From: Patescibacteria group bacterium
GTDB taxonomy: Bacteria > Patescibacteriota > Kazan-3B-28
Direction: 5' to 3'
NCBI GenBank assembly: GCA_041649135.1
Contig: JBAZNQ010000001.1
Coordinates: 227,037 to 291,036 of the forward strand
DNA length: 64,000 bases
The notes under the pieces: model-generated
The model's input: the letters and a program-made list of their open reading frames with translations, nothing else
The model's database searches: none
What the model was told of the DNA's origin: nothing
Shown: positions 44,619-49,563 of the stretch, one piece after another
Position numbering within the stretch: position 1 is the stretch's first letter
How the letters are laid out: the number at the start of each line of letters is the position of its first letter
Program-made: the position numbers and the translations under genes

Positions 44619-46088
44619 TCAAAGATTATCAACTATTCTTTTAAATTGTTCACCTCTATCATAAGCATCTTTGAACATATCAAAACTGGCACAAGCGGGG
44701 GACAAAATTACTGCTCCACCATTTTTTACTTTCGCATAAGCTACTTTTACAGCCTCATCAAACTTCGCCACAATTTTCACCGGCGTAAACGGAGTATGTT
44801 TTTTAAATACTGCTTTAAATTTCTTCGCCGACTGGCCTATCAATGCCACAAATTTAACATCCGACTTAGCCACAATTTTTGCTAATTGCTTAATATCCCC
44901 ACCCTTATACACTCCACCAACAATCAACGCTTTTGGCATATCAGCAAAAGCCAATACTGCCGCCGCAGCCGCCTCTGGCGTAGTCCCTAAGGAATCATTT
45001 ATAAATACCGTTTTCCCGATCGTTCGCACAATTTCCAGTCGGTGATGTAATGGTTTAAACGCCTTTAACCTCTGCTCAATTCTTTTTATTGGCGCACCCG
45101 CCACGATCGCCGCTGCTATGGCTGGCAACACATTTTGGATGTTATGTTCACCCCGCAACTTGATCGCCGATACTGGTGCCACTACCTGTCGGCGACCAGT
45201 TTTTATATCCCGATAAATTATCTCGTCGTCAGTCAGATACACACCATGTCTCAAAATCTGTTTGGTCGATACCGGACAAATCTTCCCTTTGGTTTGTTGT
45301 AAAGCAATTCTGGTTGGTCCGAAATCCTTTGATGCCACCAAAATATCCGACTTTTTCTGGTATTTATAAATATTCTGCTTGGCAGCTAAATATTTCCCCA
45401 TTGTCTTGTGCCGGTCCAAATGTTCTGGCACCACATTTAACAAAACCGCAATCTGTGGACTCCTGTTCAAATCTTCCAGTTGAAAACTGGATAATTCCAA
45501 CACCACCACATCAATTTTTTTCAATTTTGCCAGCAGGGGAATGGGGGAGTGGCCAATATTACCCGCCAAGTAAATTCTTGCCTTATTATGAGTTCCCGAG
45601 CTCGCCGAGGAACTACCTTTAAGCAGATGGTAAATCAGACTGGTGGTGGTTGATTTCCCCTTCGTTCCTGTCACCCCCACTATCTTTGCCGGACAAAGTT
45701 CAAAAAATAGGCGAGTCGTACTGCTAATTTCCACACCCGTTCTCGTTGCTTTCTTAAATTCTTTTTGTTGCAAAGAAATCCCCGGACTTCTAAACACAAT
45801 TTGAAAATCCGTCAAATTTTGAAGATAATCCCCGCCCAACCGAAAATCCGCACCTAGTTTTTTCGCTTCCAAATACCGCGCTCCTAGTGCCTGCCGGTTA
45901 GCCCCGTCCAACACCGTAACATTGGCTCCTTGTCTAATTAAAAATCTGACGAGCTCCATCCCCTCGCGCCCAAGTCCAATTACCGCTGTTTGCTTCCCTT
46001 GTAACCCCGAGCGAAGCCGCCTGCCCGTCGTAGCCTTGGCGTAGTCGGGAGGGGCAACCTTATTGCCCTGTAAACCATTTTTTACCAT
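44619..46088 (-). CDS. murD: UDP-N-acetylmuramoylalanine--D-glutamate ligase
   Basis: GLGREG Rossmann N-terminus and GVTGTKGKSTT. The start is probably M at 46088 (the track start at 46136 would overlap the RT gene). The N-terminal ~30 aa may be encoded by repeat-like sequence. Confidence 0.9.
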   Translation of the reverse strand: MVKNGLQGNKVAPPDYAKATTGRRLRSGLQGKQTAVIGLGREGMELVRFLIRQGANVTVLDGANRQALGARYLEAKKLGADFRLGGDYLQNLTDFQIVFRSPGISLQQKEFKKATRTGVEISSTTRLFFELCPAKIVGVTGTKGKSTTTSLIYHLLKGSSSASSGTHNKARIYLAGNIGHSPIPLLAKLKKIDVVVLELSSFQLEDLNRSPQIAVLLNVVPEHLDRHKTMGKYLAAKQNIYKYQKKSDILVASKDFGPTRIALQQTKGKICPVSTKQILRHGVYLTDDEIIYRDIKTGRRQVVAPVSAIKLRGEHNIQNVLPAIAAAIVAGAPIKRIEQRLKAFKPLHHRLEIVRTIGKTVFINDSLGTTPEAAAAAVLAFADMPKALIVGGVYKGGDIKQLAKIVAKSDVKFVALIGQSAKKFKAVFKKHTPFTPVKIVAKFDEAVKVAYAKVKNGGAVILSPACASFDMFKDAYDRGEQFKRIVDNL

Positions 46089-46095
46089 AGCCCTA

Positions 46096-47079
46096 TTATA
46101 CCCCGACCCGTCTCCGCAGATGATAAGTATCTCCATGCTTTAACAACCCGGTATACGAAGCCACCACCTCTTGTTTAGGATTTTTTGCCAGCTTCCGAAT
46201 TGTTCTGCGTTTCGTGGTCGTCCGAATTTGTCGGTGATACGGAAAATGCACCCATCCCAAAAAATCTATCCCCGAAGCCATTGTGCTAATCGACACCTTA
46301 TTTGGATGTAATTCTAGTTTTAAAACCACCTTCAAATAATTCTGAATTTCAAACAATATTTGTTCAAGCCACACCTTATTATCTGACAACACTACAAAAT
46401 CGTCTGCATATCGAATGTAGTGTTTGATTTTGAGCTGATGTTTAACAAACTGGTCAAATTCATCCATATAAATGTTCACCAAAAGCTGCGATGTCAGATT
46501 ACCCAACGGCAACCCTTTACCAACTCCCGTGCTAGTAAAACTTTCTACGATGTTCCGCAACAGCCAAATAATATTTTGGTCTGGAATATATTGAACCAAA
46601 ATATCTATCAATATTTTGTGGTCAATCGACGCAAAAAATTTTCTAATGTCGCCCTTCAACACCCAAACCGTCCGAGTATGATTACAACTAACCTGTCTGG
46701 CAAAATGTCTCAATCGATCCAATGCTCGATGTGTTCCCTTGCCCCTACGACAAGAAAAAGAGTCTGCTATAAAAGTAGTGTCAAAAAACGGATATAGCAT
46801 TCTGTATACCGCATGATGCAGCAATCTATCGCATACGCTAGCCTTGTGAATGTTTCTCGGTTTCGGATCAGAGATATTAAATGCTAGGTACTCCCCATGC
46901 CGATAAGTCCTATTGCGCAAATCTTCATGTAAACTCCGAACATTATCCGCCAATCGATACCCAAATAATTGCACATCTGGCTTCTTGGTCTTGCCTCTAA
47001 AAAACTCCCGCCATGCTGCCAGCAAATTTTCTGGCGAGATGATATCATCATAGCTATGGACGAATTGTTTTCGACTCAT
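46096..47079 (-). CDS. DGR reverse transcriptase
   Basis: RT motifs including YADDFVVL (YxDD) and the DGR-diagnostic LGNLTSQ (SQ rather than the group II SP). An AGAAGG RBS precedes M at 47079. The upstream open frame to 47286 is probably noncoding. Confidence 0.85.
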   Translation of the reverse strand: MSRKQFVHSYDDIISPENLLAAWREFFRGKTKKPDVQLFGYRLADNVRSLHEDLRNRTYRHGEYLAFNISDPKPRNIHKASVCDRLLHHAVYRMLYPFFDTTFIADSFSCRRGKGTHRALDRLRHFARQVSCNHTRTVWVLKGDIRKFFASIDHKILIDILVQYIPDQNIIWLLRNIVESFTSTGVGKGLPLGNLTSQLLVNIYMDEFDQFVKHQLKIKHYIRYADDFVVLSDNKVWLEQILFEIQNYLKVVLKLELHPNKVSISTMASGIDFLGWVHFPYHRQIRTTTKRRTIRKLAKNPKQEVVASYTGLLKHGDTYHLRRRVGV

Positions 47080-47120
47080 CCTTCTAAGGTTACCCCCCCC
47101 CCGAACCTCTGCAACCAAAA

Positions 47121-47468
47121 TTGGTCGCTGTGGTTCTGAAATTGAAAGATAGCTACCGAATTTGGCAGGAGTATCTCGTTCACTTTCCCAGACAAAATCG
47201 CTACACCCTCGGCACCAGAATTGACGCTGTTTTTCTTTCTGCCATTGAGTATTGCTTTCTCGCCAGTTATGCGCCGAAGGATGCAAAACTTAGCCTACTT
47301 AGTAGAACCATCTCTCAAGTTGATTTGCTCAAGCTCTTGCTTCAACTGGCCTGGGAAATCCGCGCTCTTGATAACAAAAAATATGCCCATCTCGGCGAAC
47401 ATCTCACCGAAATCGGCAGAATGCTTGGCGGTTGGAAAAAGGGACTGTTATCAAAAACTCCCGTCTAA
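47121..47468 (+). CDS. Four-helix-bundle protein (bAvd-like accessory variability determinant)
   Basis: Matches the four-helix-bundle/23S-IVS family pattern (…YRIWQEY…FPRQNRYTLG…LSRTISQVD…EIGRMLGGW). Lies between RT and TR but on the opposite strand. Confidence 0.55.
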   Translation: MVAVVLKLKDSYRIWQEYLVHFPRQNRYTLGTRIDAVFLSAIEYCFLASYAPKDAKLSLLSRTISQVDLLKLLLQLAWEIRALDNKKYAHLGEHLTEIGRMLGGWKKGLLSKTPV

Positions 47469-47491
47469 GATTTTAGCGGGAGAAACTTGTG

Positions 47492-47607
47492 AGTTGCAAC
47501 AAGCACGCGGTTGTCATCGTTCCACTGATTGTCGTCAAGCTGGTTCGCGTTGAAGTTCCACTGCCGGTTGTCGGAGTTCCAGTTCACGTTAGCTGCAAAG
47601 ACCTCGC
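47492..47607 (-). repeat. DGR template repeat (TR)
   Basis: On the minus strand this copy carries A at all 16 positions where VR differs. Its translation is Asn(AAC)-rich (…AANVNWNSDNRQWNFNANQLDDNQWNDDN…), typical of a TR. Confidence 0.85.
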
Positions 47608-47917
47608 TTATTGTGACCAAAGCCATCCTTATCACTGCCCATTGATTACTCTTTGGGCTGTATTTTACTTGGGACATCATAAGTCCACCAACTCTGACCA
47701 CCAACTACTACTAGTTTTTGTTGAGGCAAATCAAGACACCCTTGCCCGAACCTTGGTCCGCACAAATCTCGTCATTGATTTGCTCAAAACTCTTTATCCC
47801 AGCCGTAACCGAGATAATACAAAAGTTCTGCCGTTGATTATATCAAAAAAGTCCCAAGGGCTCATCAGCATTTCTGCCGAAGAGCCCAAGGGACCAAGAG
47901 CCAAAGGACTGAAAGGA

Positions 47918-48541
47918 CTAACTGACCGAAGAGTCAGTAGTTGCAACAAGCACGCGGTGGCCATCGTACCACTGAAAGTCGTCAAGCCGGAACGCGCGGA
48001 AGCTCCACTGCCGGTAGTCGGAGTGCCAGCTCACGAAAGCTGCAAAGACCTCGCCATTAACACCGTACACATAGACGATGTTAACGTAGCCATTAGCAAG
48101 CAAGACTCCCCGCTTGCCATTGGGCTGCAAAGCTGTCAGTTTGGCGAAGCGAGCAAAGAACTCGCTAGCCGAGAGAACGTGATTCTCCGGCAGTTCGCTG
48201 ACTATCTGCTTGTCGTAGGCTGGCTTCTTTAGGTCGAATCTATGCAACCCTCCCTCTGGCAACGGACCGATTAGTTCAGCTGCCGGAAGAATGAACCGCT
48301 TCATGCCGTCCGACAGCCAGACATCGGAACGATCCAGTTCCTTCGGGTCGAAGACCTCGGTGGCAGGAAGCATGGCTGAAGCGATGGGCTTCAGGAAGTT
48401 GTAGACCTTCTTGACCTGCTCCACTGTGAACCGGATAGTGCCGTTAAGGATACCCTCGACGATTTCCATACCGCCGAGTTTCTTCGCCAAGGCATTGGCT
48501 TGCCCCAGTGTTAGACCCATCGCACAAAATTCCTTGCTCAT
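47918..48541 (-). CDS. DGR target (variable) protein with a C-terminal CLec-like variable region, 207 aa
   Basis: The C-terminal ~38 aa (…NGYVNIVYVYGVNGEVFAAFVSWHSDYRQWSFRAFRLDDFQWYDGHRVLVAT) are encoded by VR. AAGGAGA RBS. No obvious signal peptide. Confidence 0.8.
   Translation of the reverse strand: MSKEFCAMGLTLGQANALAKKLGGMEIVEGILNGTIRFTVEQVKKVYNFLKPIASAMLPATEVFDPKELDRSDVWLSDGMKRFILPAAELIGPLPEGGLHRFDLKKPAYDKQIVSELPENHVLSASEFFARFAKLTALQPNGKRGVLLANGYVNIVYVYGVNGEVFAAFVSWHSDYRQWSFRAFRLDDFQWYDGHRVLVATTDSSVS
47939..48054 (-). repeat. DGR variable repeat (VR), followed on the 3' side by the hairpin ACTGAC-cgaaga-GTCAGT (47921-47938)
   Basis: 116/116 alignable to TR with 16 differences, all at TR adenines. 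The first ~20 nt at the VR 3' end (47939-47958) are invariant, consistent with an IMH. Confidence 0.85.
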
Positions 48542-48972
48542 GGCAAGTCTCCTTGGGCTTAGTTGCCCATCAGAAATTTTGCCTCTGCCTCGAGGCCCGA
48601 GTTAGAAACCTAGCTTACATCACGCTAGATTTGAACATATCCCGACCGAAGTCGAAACCAGCTCCCAACCAGATGGCGAGGACTGCTACCAAAGCTATTT
48701 TTCAAGCTCCCCAAAGACCCCCAAATACTACCCAAAAAGCCGCCCCCAGTCAATAGAATTTCGCTCCCAGCTCGCCCCGTAGTGAAATCGTCGCCAGTTT
48801 GCCTAATCTAGCAAATCAAACATTTCTACTGCTGTTACTATTACTGGAGTCAAATTTCATCCCTGACCAAATATTGAACGGCCGTTCAATATTTGGCACC
48901 CCTCTATCTCTACCATCGAAGGAGGAATATATTGCCTGCCCGCGGACGCGGGACGCGGCCAGGGAGCCAATA

Positions 48973-49263
48973 AAATTAGCGCAGGCGAAGGCGTTGTTTG
49001 ACCCATCCCCAATTTTGTTTTTCGCGTAGCCCGTCGTCTGTGTCCGCCATAGCCTTGGCGATGGTGGAAGCTCGTAGAGCGAAGTCGGGTCATTCTGAAC
49101 CCTGGCTGCATCCCGCACCCGCGGGCAAACTGGTTTCAGGGTCTCTAGCCAATTTTGTTTCTATTCGTCATTCTGAACTAGTTTCAGAATCTAGATGCTG
49201 AACTAAATTCAGCATGACAAAACTGGTAATGGGAAGTTCTCCGAGAACGAAGAAAGCTAATTT
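48973..49263. repeat. MITE-like element copy 2 (AAATTAGC … GCTAATTT), expanded to 291 bp by nested palindromic-element insertions (e.g. family C at 49167-49218)
   Basis: The ends match copy 1. The interior contains GTCATTCTGAAC-type hairpins. Confidence 0.6.
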
Positions 49264-49563
49264 TATTAGGCGAACAATCGAAACGACCCCAAAGGAAGCC
49301 TTAGGCTCTGGTGGGCGACTTTGGTTACTTTTCTTTAAGTCGGAAAACAACCATTGCTAAAGCGCAATTCGGCACTTCAAAACCAATGAAAGAAAAAACT
49401 TATGCCGCTTCAGAAGACGGCCGTCTTCTGAAGCGGCAGGATCATAAGGTTCTGGACTCTCTCAACCAAGGCGGGCGGGCAAGCCCGAGGATGACACAAA
49501 AAAAGAATCAAGAATGACAAAAGCAAGAGACAAAAATGAAAAAATGATAGGGAAGTTTACTGT

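What the first reader, a model, noticed from the sequence alone, without database searches (positions are those of the whole stretch)
46096..48541. Complete diversity-generating retroelement with perfect adenine-specific TR/VR asymmetry, an opposite-strand Avd-like gene and a compact target gene without an evident signal peptide
Two 116-bp near-identical repeats (47492-47607 and 47939-48054) differ at 16 positions. At every one of them the 47492 copy has A (minus-strand sense) and the other copy has C, G or T. This is the signature of DGR mutagenic retrohoming. The variable copy forms the last ~38 codons of a 207-aa gene. The template copy is Asn(AAC)-rich when translated. It is followed 410 nt downstream on the same strand by an RT with YADD and the DGR-specific LGNLTSQ motif. 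The VR 3' end has a ~20-nt invariant stretch despite containing adenines (IMH-like), then the hairpin ACTGAC-CGAAGA-GTCAGT overlapping the target stop codon. Two features are unusual. The four-helix-bundle (Avd-like) gene lies between TR and RT but on the opposite strand. The target protein is small and apparently cytoplasmic (no signal peptide, no TM). The element sits inside the dcw cluster. The 16 substitutions show it has been active.
Basis: partly seen in the sequence, partly recalled or inferred. Interest (0 to 1): 0.9.

Follow-up and report, generated by a model that had tools for sequence, protein, structure and literature searches.

The report
Active CPR-type diversity-generating retroelement
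This is a real and recently active diversity-generating retroelement in a Patescibacteria (CPR) genome; the two features flagged as unusual are normal for CPR elements, but its template RNA carries a conserved, apparently undescribed folded domain upstream of the template.

Summary
TR (47492-47607) and VR (47939-48054) differ at 16 positions, all TR adenines (p about 3e-11). An independent metagenome contig is 99.6% identical over 6.8 kb. It differs at 26 positions, 23 of them in the VR; TR is identical. So the element has been active recently.

The RT resembles Bordetella phage bRT. Avd matches Pfam bAvd.

New here:
- The VR-TR spacer is conserved across the clade: terminator, extended -10 promoter, then a ~230-nt leader with 41 covarying base pairs. 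It has no Rfam match.
- A covarying stem-loop plus U-tract follows TR.
- A leader segment is complementary to the sequence just after TR.
- An 8-nt-periodic CTTGG array follows the VR.

This suggests a DGR RNA whose structured part lies 5' of TR. Verdict: new member of a known kind.

The parts
47918..48541 (-). Target gene, 207 aa. It has an N-terminal helical segment of about 45 aa followed by an alpha/beta domain of about 150 aa, with the VR near the C-terminus.
47939..48054 (-). Variable repeat (VR), codons 163-201.
   Evidence: 16 of 16 mismatches to TR fall at TR adenines. Of the 26 differences to contig L001, 23 fall here.
47921..47938 (-). Hairpin directly 3' of the VR (ACTGAC TCTTCG GTCAGT), in the position of the BPP-1 hairpin/cruciform.
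   Evidence: Weak on its own: z = -1.2 against shuffles.
47858..47911 (-). Array of CTTGG / CTTTGG / CTTCGG motifs with 7-8 nt spacing, downstream of the target stop codon.
   Evidence: In 61 loci the motif density is 4.6 per 100 nt after the VR, against 0.49 in background and 0.71 in shuffled sequence; the commonest spacing is 8 nt. Function unknown.
47845..47895 (-). Intrinsic terminator of the target gene: stem-loop 47851-47895 (-34 kcal/mol) followed by U6 at 47845-47850.
   Evidence: A GC hairpin plus T-run at the equivalent position is seen in the clade alignment.
47837..47845 (-). Extended -10 promoter TGATATAAT for the TR RNA, about 230 nt upstream of TR.
   Evidence: Clade consensus is ttttttg.tataat. 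TGnTAnnnT occurs at -275 to -205 from TR in 34 of 61 loci. The promoter role is inferred, not shown.
47608..47830 (-). Conserved structured leader of the TR RNA. Hairpin P1 is 47795-47816 and hairpin P2 is 47735-47773; the two are similar, with apical motif GRYYAMGGYU. The long-range helix P3 (47613-47701) encloses P3a (47672-47686) and P3b (47637-47658).
   Evidence: RNAalifold on 56 loci gives 41 pairs, 36 of them with compensatory changes. 95.4% of cells are paired, against 68% after shuffling and 42-47% after sliding; 0 of 500 shuffles reach the observed value. No Rfam match.
47702..47717 (-). Leader strand (AAACTAGT...AGTTG) complementary to the last bases of TR and the sequence just after it (47483-47496).
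   Evidence: Cognate RNAduplex energy is -8.0 against -5.6 kcal/mol for non-cognate pairs. In a fixed register 67.7% of positions pair, against 40-52% after sliding and 62.6+/-1.0% with shuffled partners. Compensatory examples include L019, L024, L054, L080, L039 and L081. In the window the duplex is imperfect.
47492..47607 (-). Template repeat (TR).
   Evidence: Identical in contig L001.
47453..47482 (-). Stem-loop (10 bp with one bulged A and a tetraloop) followed by U5. It overlaps the last codons of avd on the other strand.
   Evidence: Covariance model R1 finds exactly one hit per locus in 57 sources. 94.8% of cells are paired and 7 of 8 pairs covary, on an alignment fitted to the model. 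A U-rich tail follows in 50 of 61 loci. It matches the 'Avd-binding stem-loop just downstream of TR' of Handa et al..
47121..47468 (+). avd accessory gene, convergent with the TR RNA. The start may be the GTG at 47130.
   Evidence: Pfam PF22296 at 51.4 bits and NCBIfam NF033474 at 71.5 bits. JGI called 112 aa.
47093..47102 (-). G10 tract between the avd start and the RT start; G9 in the second population.
46096..47079 (-). DGR reverse transcriptase, 327 aa.
   Evidence: RVT_1. Full-length match to PDB 8ub7_A at E = 1.3e-40, with LGNLTSQ and YADD.

Best explanation
The locus is a chromosomal, recently active DGR of the CPR/Patescibacteria type: architecture target-VR / TR / (avd, reverse strand) / RT.

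The target gene is its own transcription unit and ends at a strong terminator. Immediately after it, an extended -10 promoter starts a separate non-coding RNA. That RNA consists of a ~230-nt structured leader (hairpins P1 and P2, then a three-helix P3 domain), the 116-nt TR, a short strand complementary to a leader segment, and a stem-loop followed by a U-tract.

RT and Avd would bind this RNA and copy TR into cDNA with random misincorporation opposite adenines. The cDNA replaces the VR up to an IMH-like boundary about 18 nt before the end of TR/VR identity. This rewrites up to about 20 codons, roughly 6e17 possible protein variants with no reachable stop codon. The rewritten residues lie on the last three beta-strands of a small, probably C-type-lectin-like binding protein that has no export signal.

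Shown here:
- the repeats and their adenine bias;
- the diversification between two populations;
- the protein identities;
- the conservation and covariation of the RNA helices;
- the 3' boundary of mutagenesis.

Inferred:
- the promoter and terminator usage;
- that the leader is part of the functional DGR RNA, taking over roles that the 3' spacer (Sp) has in Bordetella phage, such as RT binding, primer strand and stop element;
- the ligand and the cellular location of the target.
For: - Adenine-only TR/VR differences, p = 3.5e-11.
- Second population: 26 differences in 6836 bp, 23 of them in the VR; 24 of its 25 VR-versus-TR differences are at TR adenines; TR is identical.
- RT matches bRT (PDB 8ub7) over its full length at E = 1e-40 and has the [ILV]GxxxSQ motif. 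Avd matches the Avd families.
- The same cassette occurs with different chromosomal neighbours in L002 and L003. Reverse-strand avd abuts the RT in 77 of 78 loci. Adenine-biased TR/VR pairs are found in about 60 loci.
- B3 architecture is the CPR norm (PMC5758913).
- Leader: 41 pairs, 95.4% paired against 68% shuffled and about 45% slid, on a sequence-only alignment.
- Post-TR stem-loop: 7 of 8 pairs covary.
- Leader/post-TR complementarity is stronger for cognate than for non-cognate pairs.
- Across 44 loci, adenines 30 nt or more upstream of the stem-loop are mutated at 50-69%. The CAAC adenines 10-14 nt upstream are mutated at 9%.
- The target terminator and the promoter are conserved in position.
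Against: - There are no transcript data, so the promoter, the RNA ends and read-through into the RT gene are untested.
- The U-tract after the stem-loop could terminate the RNA. If so, RT needs its own promoter, and none was identified.
- The leader/post-TR duplex is imperfect in the window itself (7 + 5 bp with mismatches), and its covariation signal is modest (67.7% against 62.6%).
- One of the VR differences in L001 is at a T, not an A.
- Only one second population was found; two metagenome DNA scans returned nothing.
Confidence: 0.85

Rival explanations
1. The element is an inactive relic. The TR/VR differences are old, and the difference between the two populations reflects ordinary divergence or recombination.
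For: Only two VR alleles are available, and no transcript or cDNA evidence exists. The G-tract between avd and RT varies in length, which could affect expression.
Against: Outside the VR the two contigs differ by 2 SNPs and 1 homopolymer indel in 6.7 kb, against 23 differences in 116 nt, 22 of them at TR-adenine positions. All ORFs are intact. TR is identical in both populations. All RNA helices form in the window.
Confidence: 0.05
2. The conserved stem-loop plus U-tract after TR is simply an intrinsic terminator that protects convergent avd from antisense transcription. The conserved upstream leader is then a separate regulatory RNA or 5' UTR-like element with no role in reverse transcription. 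Priming and RT binding would use antisense-avd sequence downstream, as with Sp in Bordetella phage.
For: GC-rich stem, tetraloop and UUUUGUUUU tail in 50 of 61 loci. In BPP-1 all essential elements except a ~20-nt strand lie 3' of TR.
Against: If the RNA terminates there, no 3' spacer exists, so the functional RNA must lie 5' of TR. The leader is contiguous with TR: P3 ends about 6 nt before it. A leader strand is complementary to the TR end and the post-TR segment, with compensatory changes. I saw no conservation in antisense avd beyond what the avd coding sequence explains; this was by inspection only and was not formally tested.
Confidence: 0.2
3. The target is an exported or surface-exposed adhesin, as is usual for cellular DGR targets, rather than a cytoplasmic protein.
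For: Most cellular DGR targets are membrane-anchored binders (PMC8144416). CPR bacteria are episymbionts that need adaptable attachment. One of 151 family members has an N-terminal hydrophobic segment.
Against: 150 of 151 family representatives, including this one, lack any signal-peptide-like or TM-like N-terminal segment by hydropathy. No conserved partner gene is present next to the cassette.
Confidence: 0.35

Closest known systems
CPR (Patescibacteria) DGRs: architecture B3 'TR-(avd)-RT' of Wu et al. 2018 (PMC5758913) and DGR clade 2 of Roux et al. 2021 (PMC8144416)
   Same: Gene order and strands are the same. There is a single adjacent target with a C-terminal VR, no recognisable TM segment or domain in the target, a chromosomal location and a CPR host. 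The closest RT relatives (60-66% identity) are mostly in Patescibacteria-labelled MAGs.
   Different: Nothing in gene content differs. The conserved 5' leader RNA, the CTTGG array and the ~200-aa target family are not mentioned in the papers I could read.
Bordetella phage BPP-1 DGR (mtd-VR, avd, TR, Sp, brt)
   Same: The RT is homologous (E = 1e-40 to PDB 8ub7). Avd is present. Mutagenesis is adenine-specific. The 3' end is IMH-like and invariant. A hairpin follows the VR, and a stem-loop follows TR like the Avd-binding Sp3-33 element. [quoted passage not shown]
   Different: avd is between TR and RT on the other strand, so there is no free 140-nt spacer 3' of TR. The large structured RNA domain lies 5' of TR instead. 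The post-TR stem-loop is followed by a U-tract. The target is a 207-aa protein without an export signal, not a phage tail fibre. The Rfam copy searched gave no match, which should include the RT-10 motif that covers BPP-1 Sp.
C-type-lectin-fold DGR variable proteins (Mtd 1yu0, TvpA 2y3c) and FGE-sulfatase-like domains

Membership tests
Diversity-generating retroelement (DGR) | Reverse transcriptase of the DGR clade, with [I/L/V]GxxxSQ in motif 4 and YxDD | tested here: met
   LGNLTSQ and YADD are present. The best solved relative is PDB 8ub7_A (which I take to be bRT), full length, E = 1.3e-40, well ahead of group II intron RTs at 1e-19. No phylogeny was computed.
Diversity-generating retroelement (DGR) | TR/VR pair whose differences are confined to TR adenines | tested here: met
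   16 of 16 in the window; 24 of 25 in the second population.
Diversity-generating retroelement (DGR) | VR inside a protein-coding target, with adenines at codon positions 1 and 2 (AAC-rich TR) | tested here: met
   Codons 163-201 of the 207-aa ORF. 30 of 32 adenines are at positions 1 or 2, there are 11 AAY codons, and no stop codon is reachable.
Diversity-generating retroelement (DGR) | Accessory variability determinant (Avd) | tested here: met
   Pfam bAvd 51.4 bits (cut-off 40). NCBIfam Avd 71.5 bits, below its cut-off of 80. No PDB sequence hit.
Diversity-generating retroelement (DGR) | IMH-type 3' boundary of mutagenesis | tested here: met
   The last 19 nt of the repeat are invariant in both VR alleles, including 2 adenines. 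Clade-wide, the mutation rate of adenines drops from 50-69% to 9% near the TR end. IMH and IMH* are identical here; the two copies differ only beyond the repeat.
Diversity-generating retroelement (DGR) | Ongoing mutagenic retrohoming | tested here: met
   Indirect evidence only: two nearly clonal populations have different VRs. No cDNA or time-series data.
CPR-type DGR, architecture B3 (Wu et al. 2018) | Order TR - avd (reverse strand) - RT, with an adjacent upstream target | tested here: met
   The same arrangement is found in 77 of 78 related loci. Definition taken from PMC5758913.
C-type-lectin-fold variable proteins | VR displayed on a C-type-lectin/FGE-like fold | tested here: inconclusive
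BPP-1-type DGR RNA (Handa et al.) | Avd-binding stem-loop immediately 3' of TR | tested here: met
   A covarying 8-10 bp stem with a tetraloop and a bulged base starts 9-14 nt after TR. Binding to Avd was not tested.
BPP-1-type DGR RNA (Handa et al.) | ~140-nt structured spacer 3' of TR carrying the priming adenosine and the RT-binding stem-loop | tested here: not met
   The 3' side of TR is occupied by antisense avd after 23 nt, and a U-tract follows the stem-loop. The conserved structured domain is 5' of TR.

The most novel reading that the evidence does not exclude
In the large CPR clade of TR-(avd)-RT DGRs, the DGR RNA is organised differently from the Bordetella paradigm. It would be an independently transcribed RNA of about 400 nt, whose ~230-nt 5' domain (P1, P2, P3) does the jobs of the 3' spacer. 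The strand just 5' of P3 pairs with the end of TR and the bases after it, forming the template:primer duplex. P3 acts as the stop element. The only 3' element is the Avd-binding stem-loop, which also terminates transcription. The 8-nt-periodic CTTGG array after the VR would then be a clade-specific target-site marker. As far as I could check, neither the leader nor the array is described in the literature or in Rfam.
Probability: 0.4. Interest if true: 0.7.

Novelty: new member of a known kind. Interest (0 to 1): 0.5.

Why it matters
As a DGR the locus is ordinary. DGRs are enriched in CPR bacteria, and this architecture and this kind of target were catalogued in 2017-2021.

Three things make it useful.
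- It gives clean natural evidence of activity: two near-clonal populations with different VRs.
- It anchors a large family of compact, signal-less CPR targets that has no Pfam model, and it provides a confident structure model for that family. This bears on the question Roux et al. left open, whether CPR targets are genuinely non-membrane proteins.
- Comparison of about 60 related loci exposes a strongly covarying RNA domain upstream of TR, together with a defined promoter and terminator. That yields a concrete, testable model of how DGRs with antisense avd build their template RNA. Earlier comparative work looked only 40 nt upstream of TR.

Tried and rejected
- Word-indexed protein search with the target alone found only one homologue. 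The exhaustive HMMER search was needed to reveal the family.
- The search for related loci with the target alignment failed because no stretch was conserved enough. An RT alignment was used instead.
- Two metagenome DNA scans returned nothing: the TR/VR pattern with N at adenines, and the VR 3' junction. No further VR alleles were obtained.
- Foldseek against PDB and BFVD gave no significant match. The afdb50 library was not available.
- Rfam found nothing in the window region at E<=1 or in locus L073 at E<=10.
- I tested whether the apical loops of P1/P2 (YYA[A/C]GG) are complementary guides for the CTTGG repeats. This was rejected: loops with ACGG dominate, and CCGT is not enriched after the VR in those loci.
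- I tested whether the 20-nt direct repeat flanking the cassette is a general insertion signature. Only 4 of 52 other loci have flanking repeats, so it is not general.
- I looked for a conserved complement to the TR 3' end within antisense avd. The conservation I saw there fits the avd coding sequence (Avd C-terminal motif). This was by inspection only.
- Paul et al. 2017 (PMC5436926) could not be read.
Full report
**Observation.** The window holds two 116-nt direct repeats, 47492-47607 and 47939-48054. Read on the minus strand they differ at 16 positions, and at each one the 47492 copy has A while the other has T (8), G (5) or C (3). That copy has 32 adenines in 116 nt, so the chance of this pattern is 3.5e-11. 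A pattern with N at every TR adenine matches only these two sites in 64 kb, where none is expected. The variable copy covers codons 163-201 of a 207-aa ORF (47918-48541, minus strand). Thirty of the 32 adenines are at codon positions 1 or 2, mostly in 11 AAY codons, and none of the reachable substitutions gives a stop codon. The theoretical repertoire is about 6e17 proteins.

**Proteins.** The ORF 46096-47079 (minus strand, 327 aa from the ATG that aligns with bRT) is an RVT_1 reverse transcriptase. Its best solved relative is PDB chain 8ub7_A, a 328-aa reverse transcriptase that I take to be Bordetella phage bRT. The match is full length at E = 1.3e-40, against 1e-19 for group II intron RTs, and it includes GLPLGNLTSQLL and RYADDFV. 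The ORF 47121-47468 on the plus strand matches Pfam bAvd (51.4 bits, cut-off 40) and NCBIfam Avd (71.5 bits, just under its cut-off of 80). The target has no Pfam, NCBIfam or PDB sequence match.

**Genomic context.** The exact target sequence is deposited as MFA5009878.1, from a Patescibacteria group MAG with a 521-kb contig. The flanking genes on the minus strand are, in order: rsmH, a PBP, a Mur ligase and mraY; then Sua5, Gmad2, TspO, Germane and His_Phos genes and a 1-kb non-coding stretch; then the DGR; then murD, ftsW and murG. The element therefore sits in a 9-kb interruption of the dcw cluster, directly upstream of murD.

**Activity.** One other protein in 5.8 billion clusters at 92% identity to the target. 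Its contig (JGI 3300037067, locus L001, 6835 bp) aligns to the window at 99.6% identity with 26 differences. Twenty-three are inside the VR, two are SNPs elsewhere, and one is a G9/G10 length difference between avd and RT. TR is identical in both. The second VR differs from TR at 25 sites: 24 at TR adenines and one T-to-G. The last 19 nt of the repeat, which include two adenines, are unchanged in both alleles. It supports recent mutagenic retrohoming, with one non-adenine change of the kind Wu et al. report for other DGRs.

**The two "unusual" features.** Wu et al. 2018 define architecture B3 as TR-(avd)-RT, where the parentheses mean the reverse strand. [quoted passage not shown] I checked this independently. 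An RT-based scan of one genome per GTDB species found at least 576 relatives, and the best 80 loci (60-66% RT identity) are mostly labelled as Patescibacteria MAGs. In 77 of the 78 loci where an avd was detected, avd lies on the opposite strand and abuts the RT start. Adenine-biased TR/VR pairs were recovered in about 60 loci. Roux et al. [quoted passage not shown] Both features are therefore the norm for this lineage.

**The target family.** An exhaustive HMMER search gave 890 cluster representatives at E<=1e-3 and 250 at E<=1e-10. Nearly all are 160-230 aa and align through to the C-terminus. They share the scaffold QPNGxxGxLLxNGYANIFYVxGxxGEVFAVxVxWxxxxRxWxVxAxxLDDxRWxAGxRVFS. None of 50 members hits Pfam. 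By hydropathy, only 1 of 151 has a signal-like or TM-like N-terminus. Homologues in L002 (Parcubacteria C7867-005) and L003 sit in the same cassette but between different housekeeping genes. About 23 of 83 related loci carry a target of this family.

**RNA elements: the post-TR stem-loop.** Directly 3' of TR, almost every related locus has TTTCTC-stem-loop-stem-GAGTTTTGTTT. A covariance model built on 44 loci finds exactly one hit per locus in 57 sources, always at the TR/avd junction. On that alignment 94.8% of cells pair, against 74% after shuffling and at most 58% after sliding, and 7 of 8 pairs show compensatory changes. The alignment was fitted to the model, which favours pairing. In the window the element is 47458-47482 plus U5. 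It has 10 bp, a bulged A and a tetraloop, and its 3' arm encodes the last avd codons. It corresponds to the Avd-binding stem-loop that Handa et al. found at Sp3-33 in BPP-1 and predicted in 207 of 278 avd-containing DGRs, CPR included (bioRxiv 10.1101/2023.10.23.563531). Here it also looks like an intrinsic terminator.

**RNA elements: the conserved spacer.** The VR-TR spacer is conserved in length (about 290-400 nt) and in sequence across the clade. After the VR the elements come in this order:
- an array of CTTGG-like motifs;
- a GC hairpin plus T-run, which in the window is 47851-47895 (-34 kcal/mol) followed by U6;
- an extended -10 box with consensus ttttttg.tataat, which in the window is TGATATAAT at 47837-47845;
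- a leader of about 230 nt that ends a few bases before TR.

**RNA elements: the leader fold.** RNAalifold on a sequence-only MAFFT alignment of 56 leaders predicts 41 pairs, 36 with compensatory double changes, and a covariation term of -14.7 kcal/mol. On that alignment 95.4% of cells pair, against 68.3% with shuffled partners and 42-47% with slid partners. There are 686 double-change cells against 196, and none of 500 shuffles reaches the observed values. The helices are two similar hairpins, P1 and P2 (apical motif GRYYAMGGYU), and a 12-bp long-range helix P3 that encloses two hairpins. All of them form in the window. Rfam 15 has no match in the window or in a typical locus. If Rfam holds the RT-1 to RT-19 motifs of Weinberg et al. 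2017, as I believe, none of them matched either; RT-10 is the BPP-1 spacer (PMC5737381). Handa et al. examined only 40 nt upstream of TR, so they would not have seen this domain.

**RNA elements: the long-range duplex.** The leader segment just 5' of P3 (consensus AAAAAAUGAAGAUACUUG) is complementary to the end of TR plus the bases between TR and the stem-loop (CAACUCUCUUCAUUU). Cognate pairs are more stable than non-cognate pairs, -8.0 against -5.6 kcal/mol. In a fixed register 67.7% of positions pair, against 40-52% after sliding and 62.6+/-1.0% with shuffled partners. Several loci show compensatory changes: L019, L024, L054, L080 and L020, and L039 and L081 for the CAAC:GUUG part. In the window the duplex is 47702-47717 with 47483-47496, and it is imperfect.

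**Boundary of mutagenesis.** Over 44 loci, TR adenines 30 nt or more upstream of the stem-loop differ from the VR in 50-69% of cases. Adenines are rare at 15-29 nt. The CAAC adenines at 10-14 nt differ in only 9% of cases (6 of 67). This is a sharp IMH-type boundary. It is consistent with the TR end being held in a duplex rather than copied.

**Mechanism proposed.** The target is transcribed and terminated on its own. A separate RNA of about 400 nt starts near 47830 and ends near 47453, and contains leader, TR and stem-loop. Avd binds the 3' stem-loop, by analogy with BPP-1. RT is held by the 5' domain. The leader strand pairs with the TR end and supplies or positions the primer. P3 would block further extension. 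The adenine-mutagenised cDNA then replaces the VR up to the IMH-like segment, helped by the hairpin at 47921-47938 and perhaps by the CTTGG array. The steps from "Avd binds" onward are inference. The rival reading is that the stem-loop is only a terminator and that the leader has some other role. It is not excluded, and it still leaves the question of where the 3' spacer functions would lie.

**Verdict.** This is a genuine, active DGR and a new member of the known CPR B3 / clade 2 kind. The residual interest lies in the clade-wide RNA architecture and in the target family, both of which are now directly testable.

Noticed in passing
window 47858-47911 (-), and the 80 nt after the VR in about 60 related loci: There is a tandem-like array of 5-8 short motifs (CTTGG, CTTTGG, CTTAG, CTTCGG) spaced 7-8 nt apart, between the target stop codon and its terminator. 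Its density is about 9 times background and about 6 times that of shuffled sequence. Function unknown. The same CTTGG core is the most conserved motif of the leader, just 5' of P3.
   Followed up: partly
window 47093-47102: A homopolymer G10 lies in the 41-nt gap between the divergent avd and RT starts. It is G9 in the otherwise near-identical contig L001. This could be an assembly artefact or a slippage-prone tract affecting expression.
   Followed up: no
window 46022-46041 and 49041-49060 (-): A 20-nt direct repeat (17 of 20 identical, CGCCAAGGCTAYGRCGGRCA) occurs only twice in the window and brackets the DGR cassette: one copy just after the RT stop, the other about 500 nt upstream of the target. 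Comparable flanking repeats exist in only 4 of 52 other loci (L058 272 nt, L064 39 nt, L066 32 nt, L022 13 nt).
   Followed up: partly
window 48542-49563: About 1 kb upstream of the target has no convincing gene. It is rich in palindromes and inverted repeats (48867-48896; 48937-48964 with 49100-49127; 49164-49221) and begins with a strong terminator of the His_Phos gene (49403-49438). No Rfam match.
   Followed up: no
window 46084-46136: The longest murD ORF starts at 46136 and overlaps the RT 3' end. The Mur ligase homology begins only at about residue 48, and the extension contains the GC-rich flanking repeat. The real murD start is probably further downstream.
   Followed up: no
L001 4516 (equivalent to window 48028): The second population's VR has one T-to-G change (TGG to GGG, W172G) at a position that is not a TR adenine.
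   Followed up: no
protein P0086: One family member is 926 aa long and matches the 207-aa target in five separate stretches, suggesting a tandem multi-domain version of this small target.
   Followed up: no
L016 and L080 (both from MAG C24_metabat.bin.189); L046: One MAG carries two RT loci of this clade on different contigs. L046 has two avd-like ORFs upstream of one RT. Multiple cassettes per CPR genome therefore occur.
   Followed up: no
L071: This is the only related locus where avd is on the same strand as RT, about 1.5 kb upstream. It is an exception to the B3 arrangement within the same RT clade.
   Followed up: no
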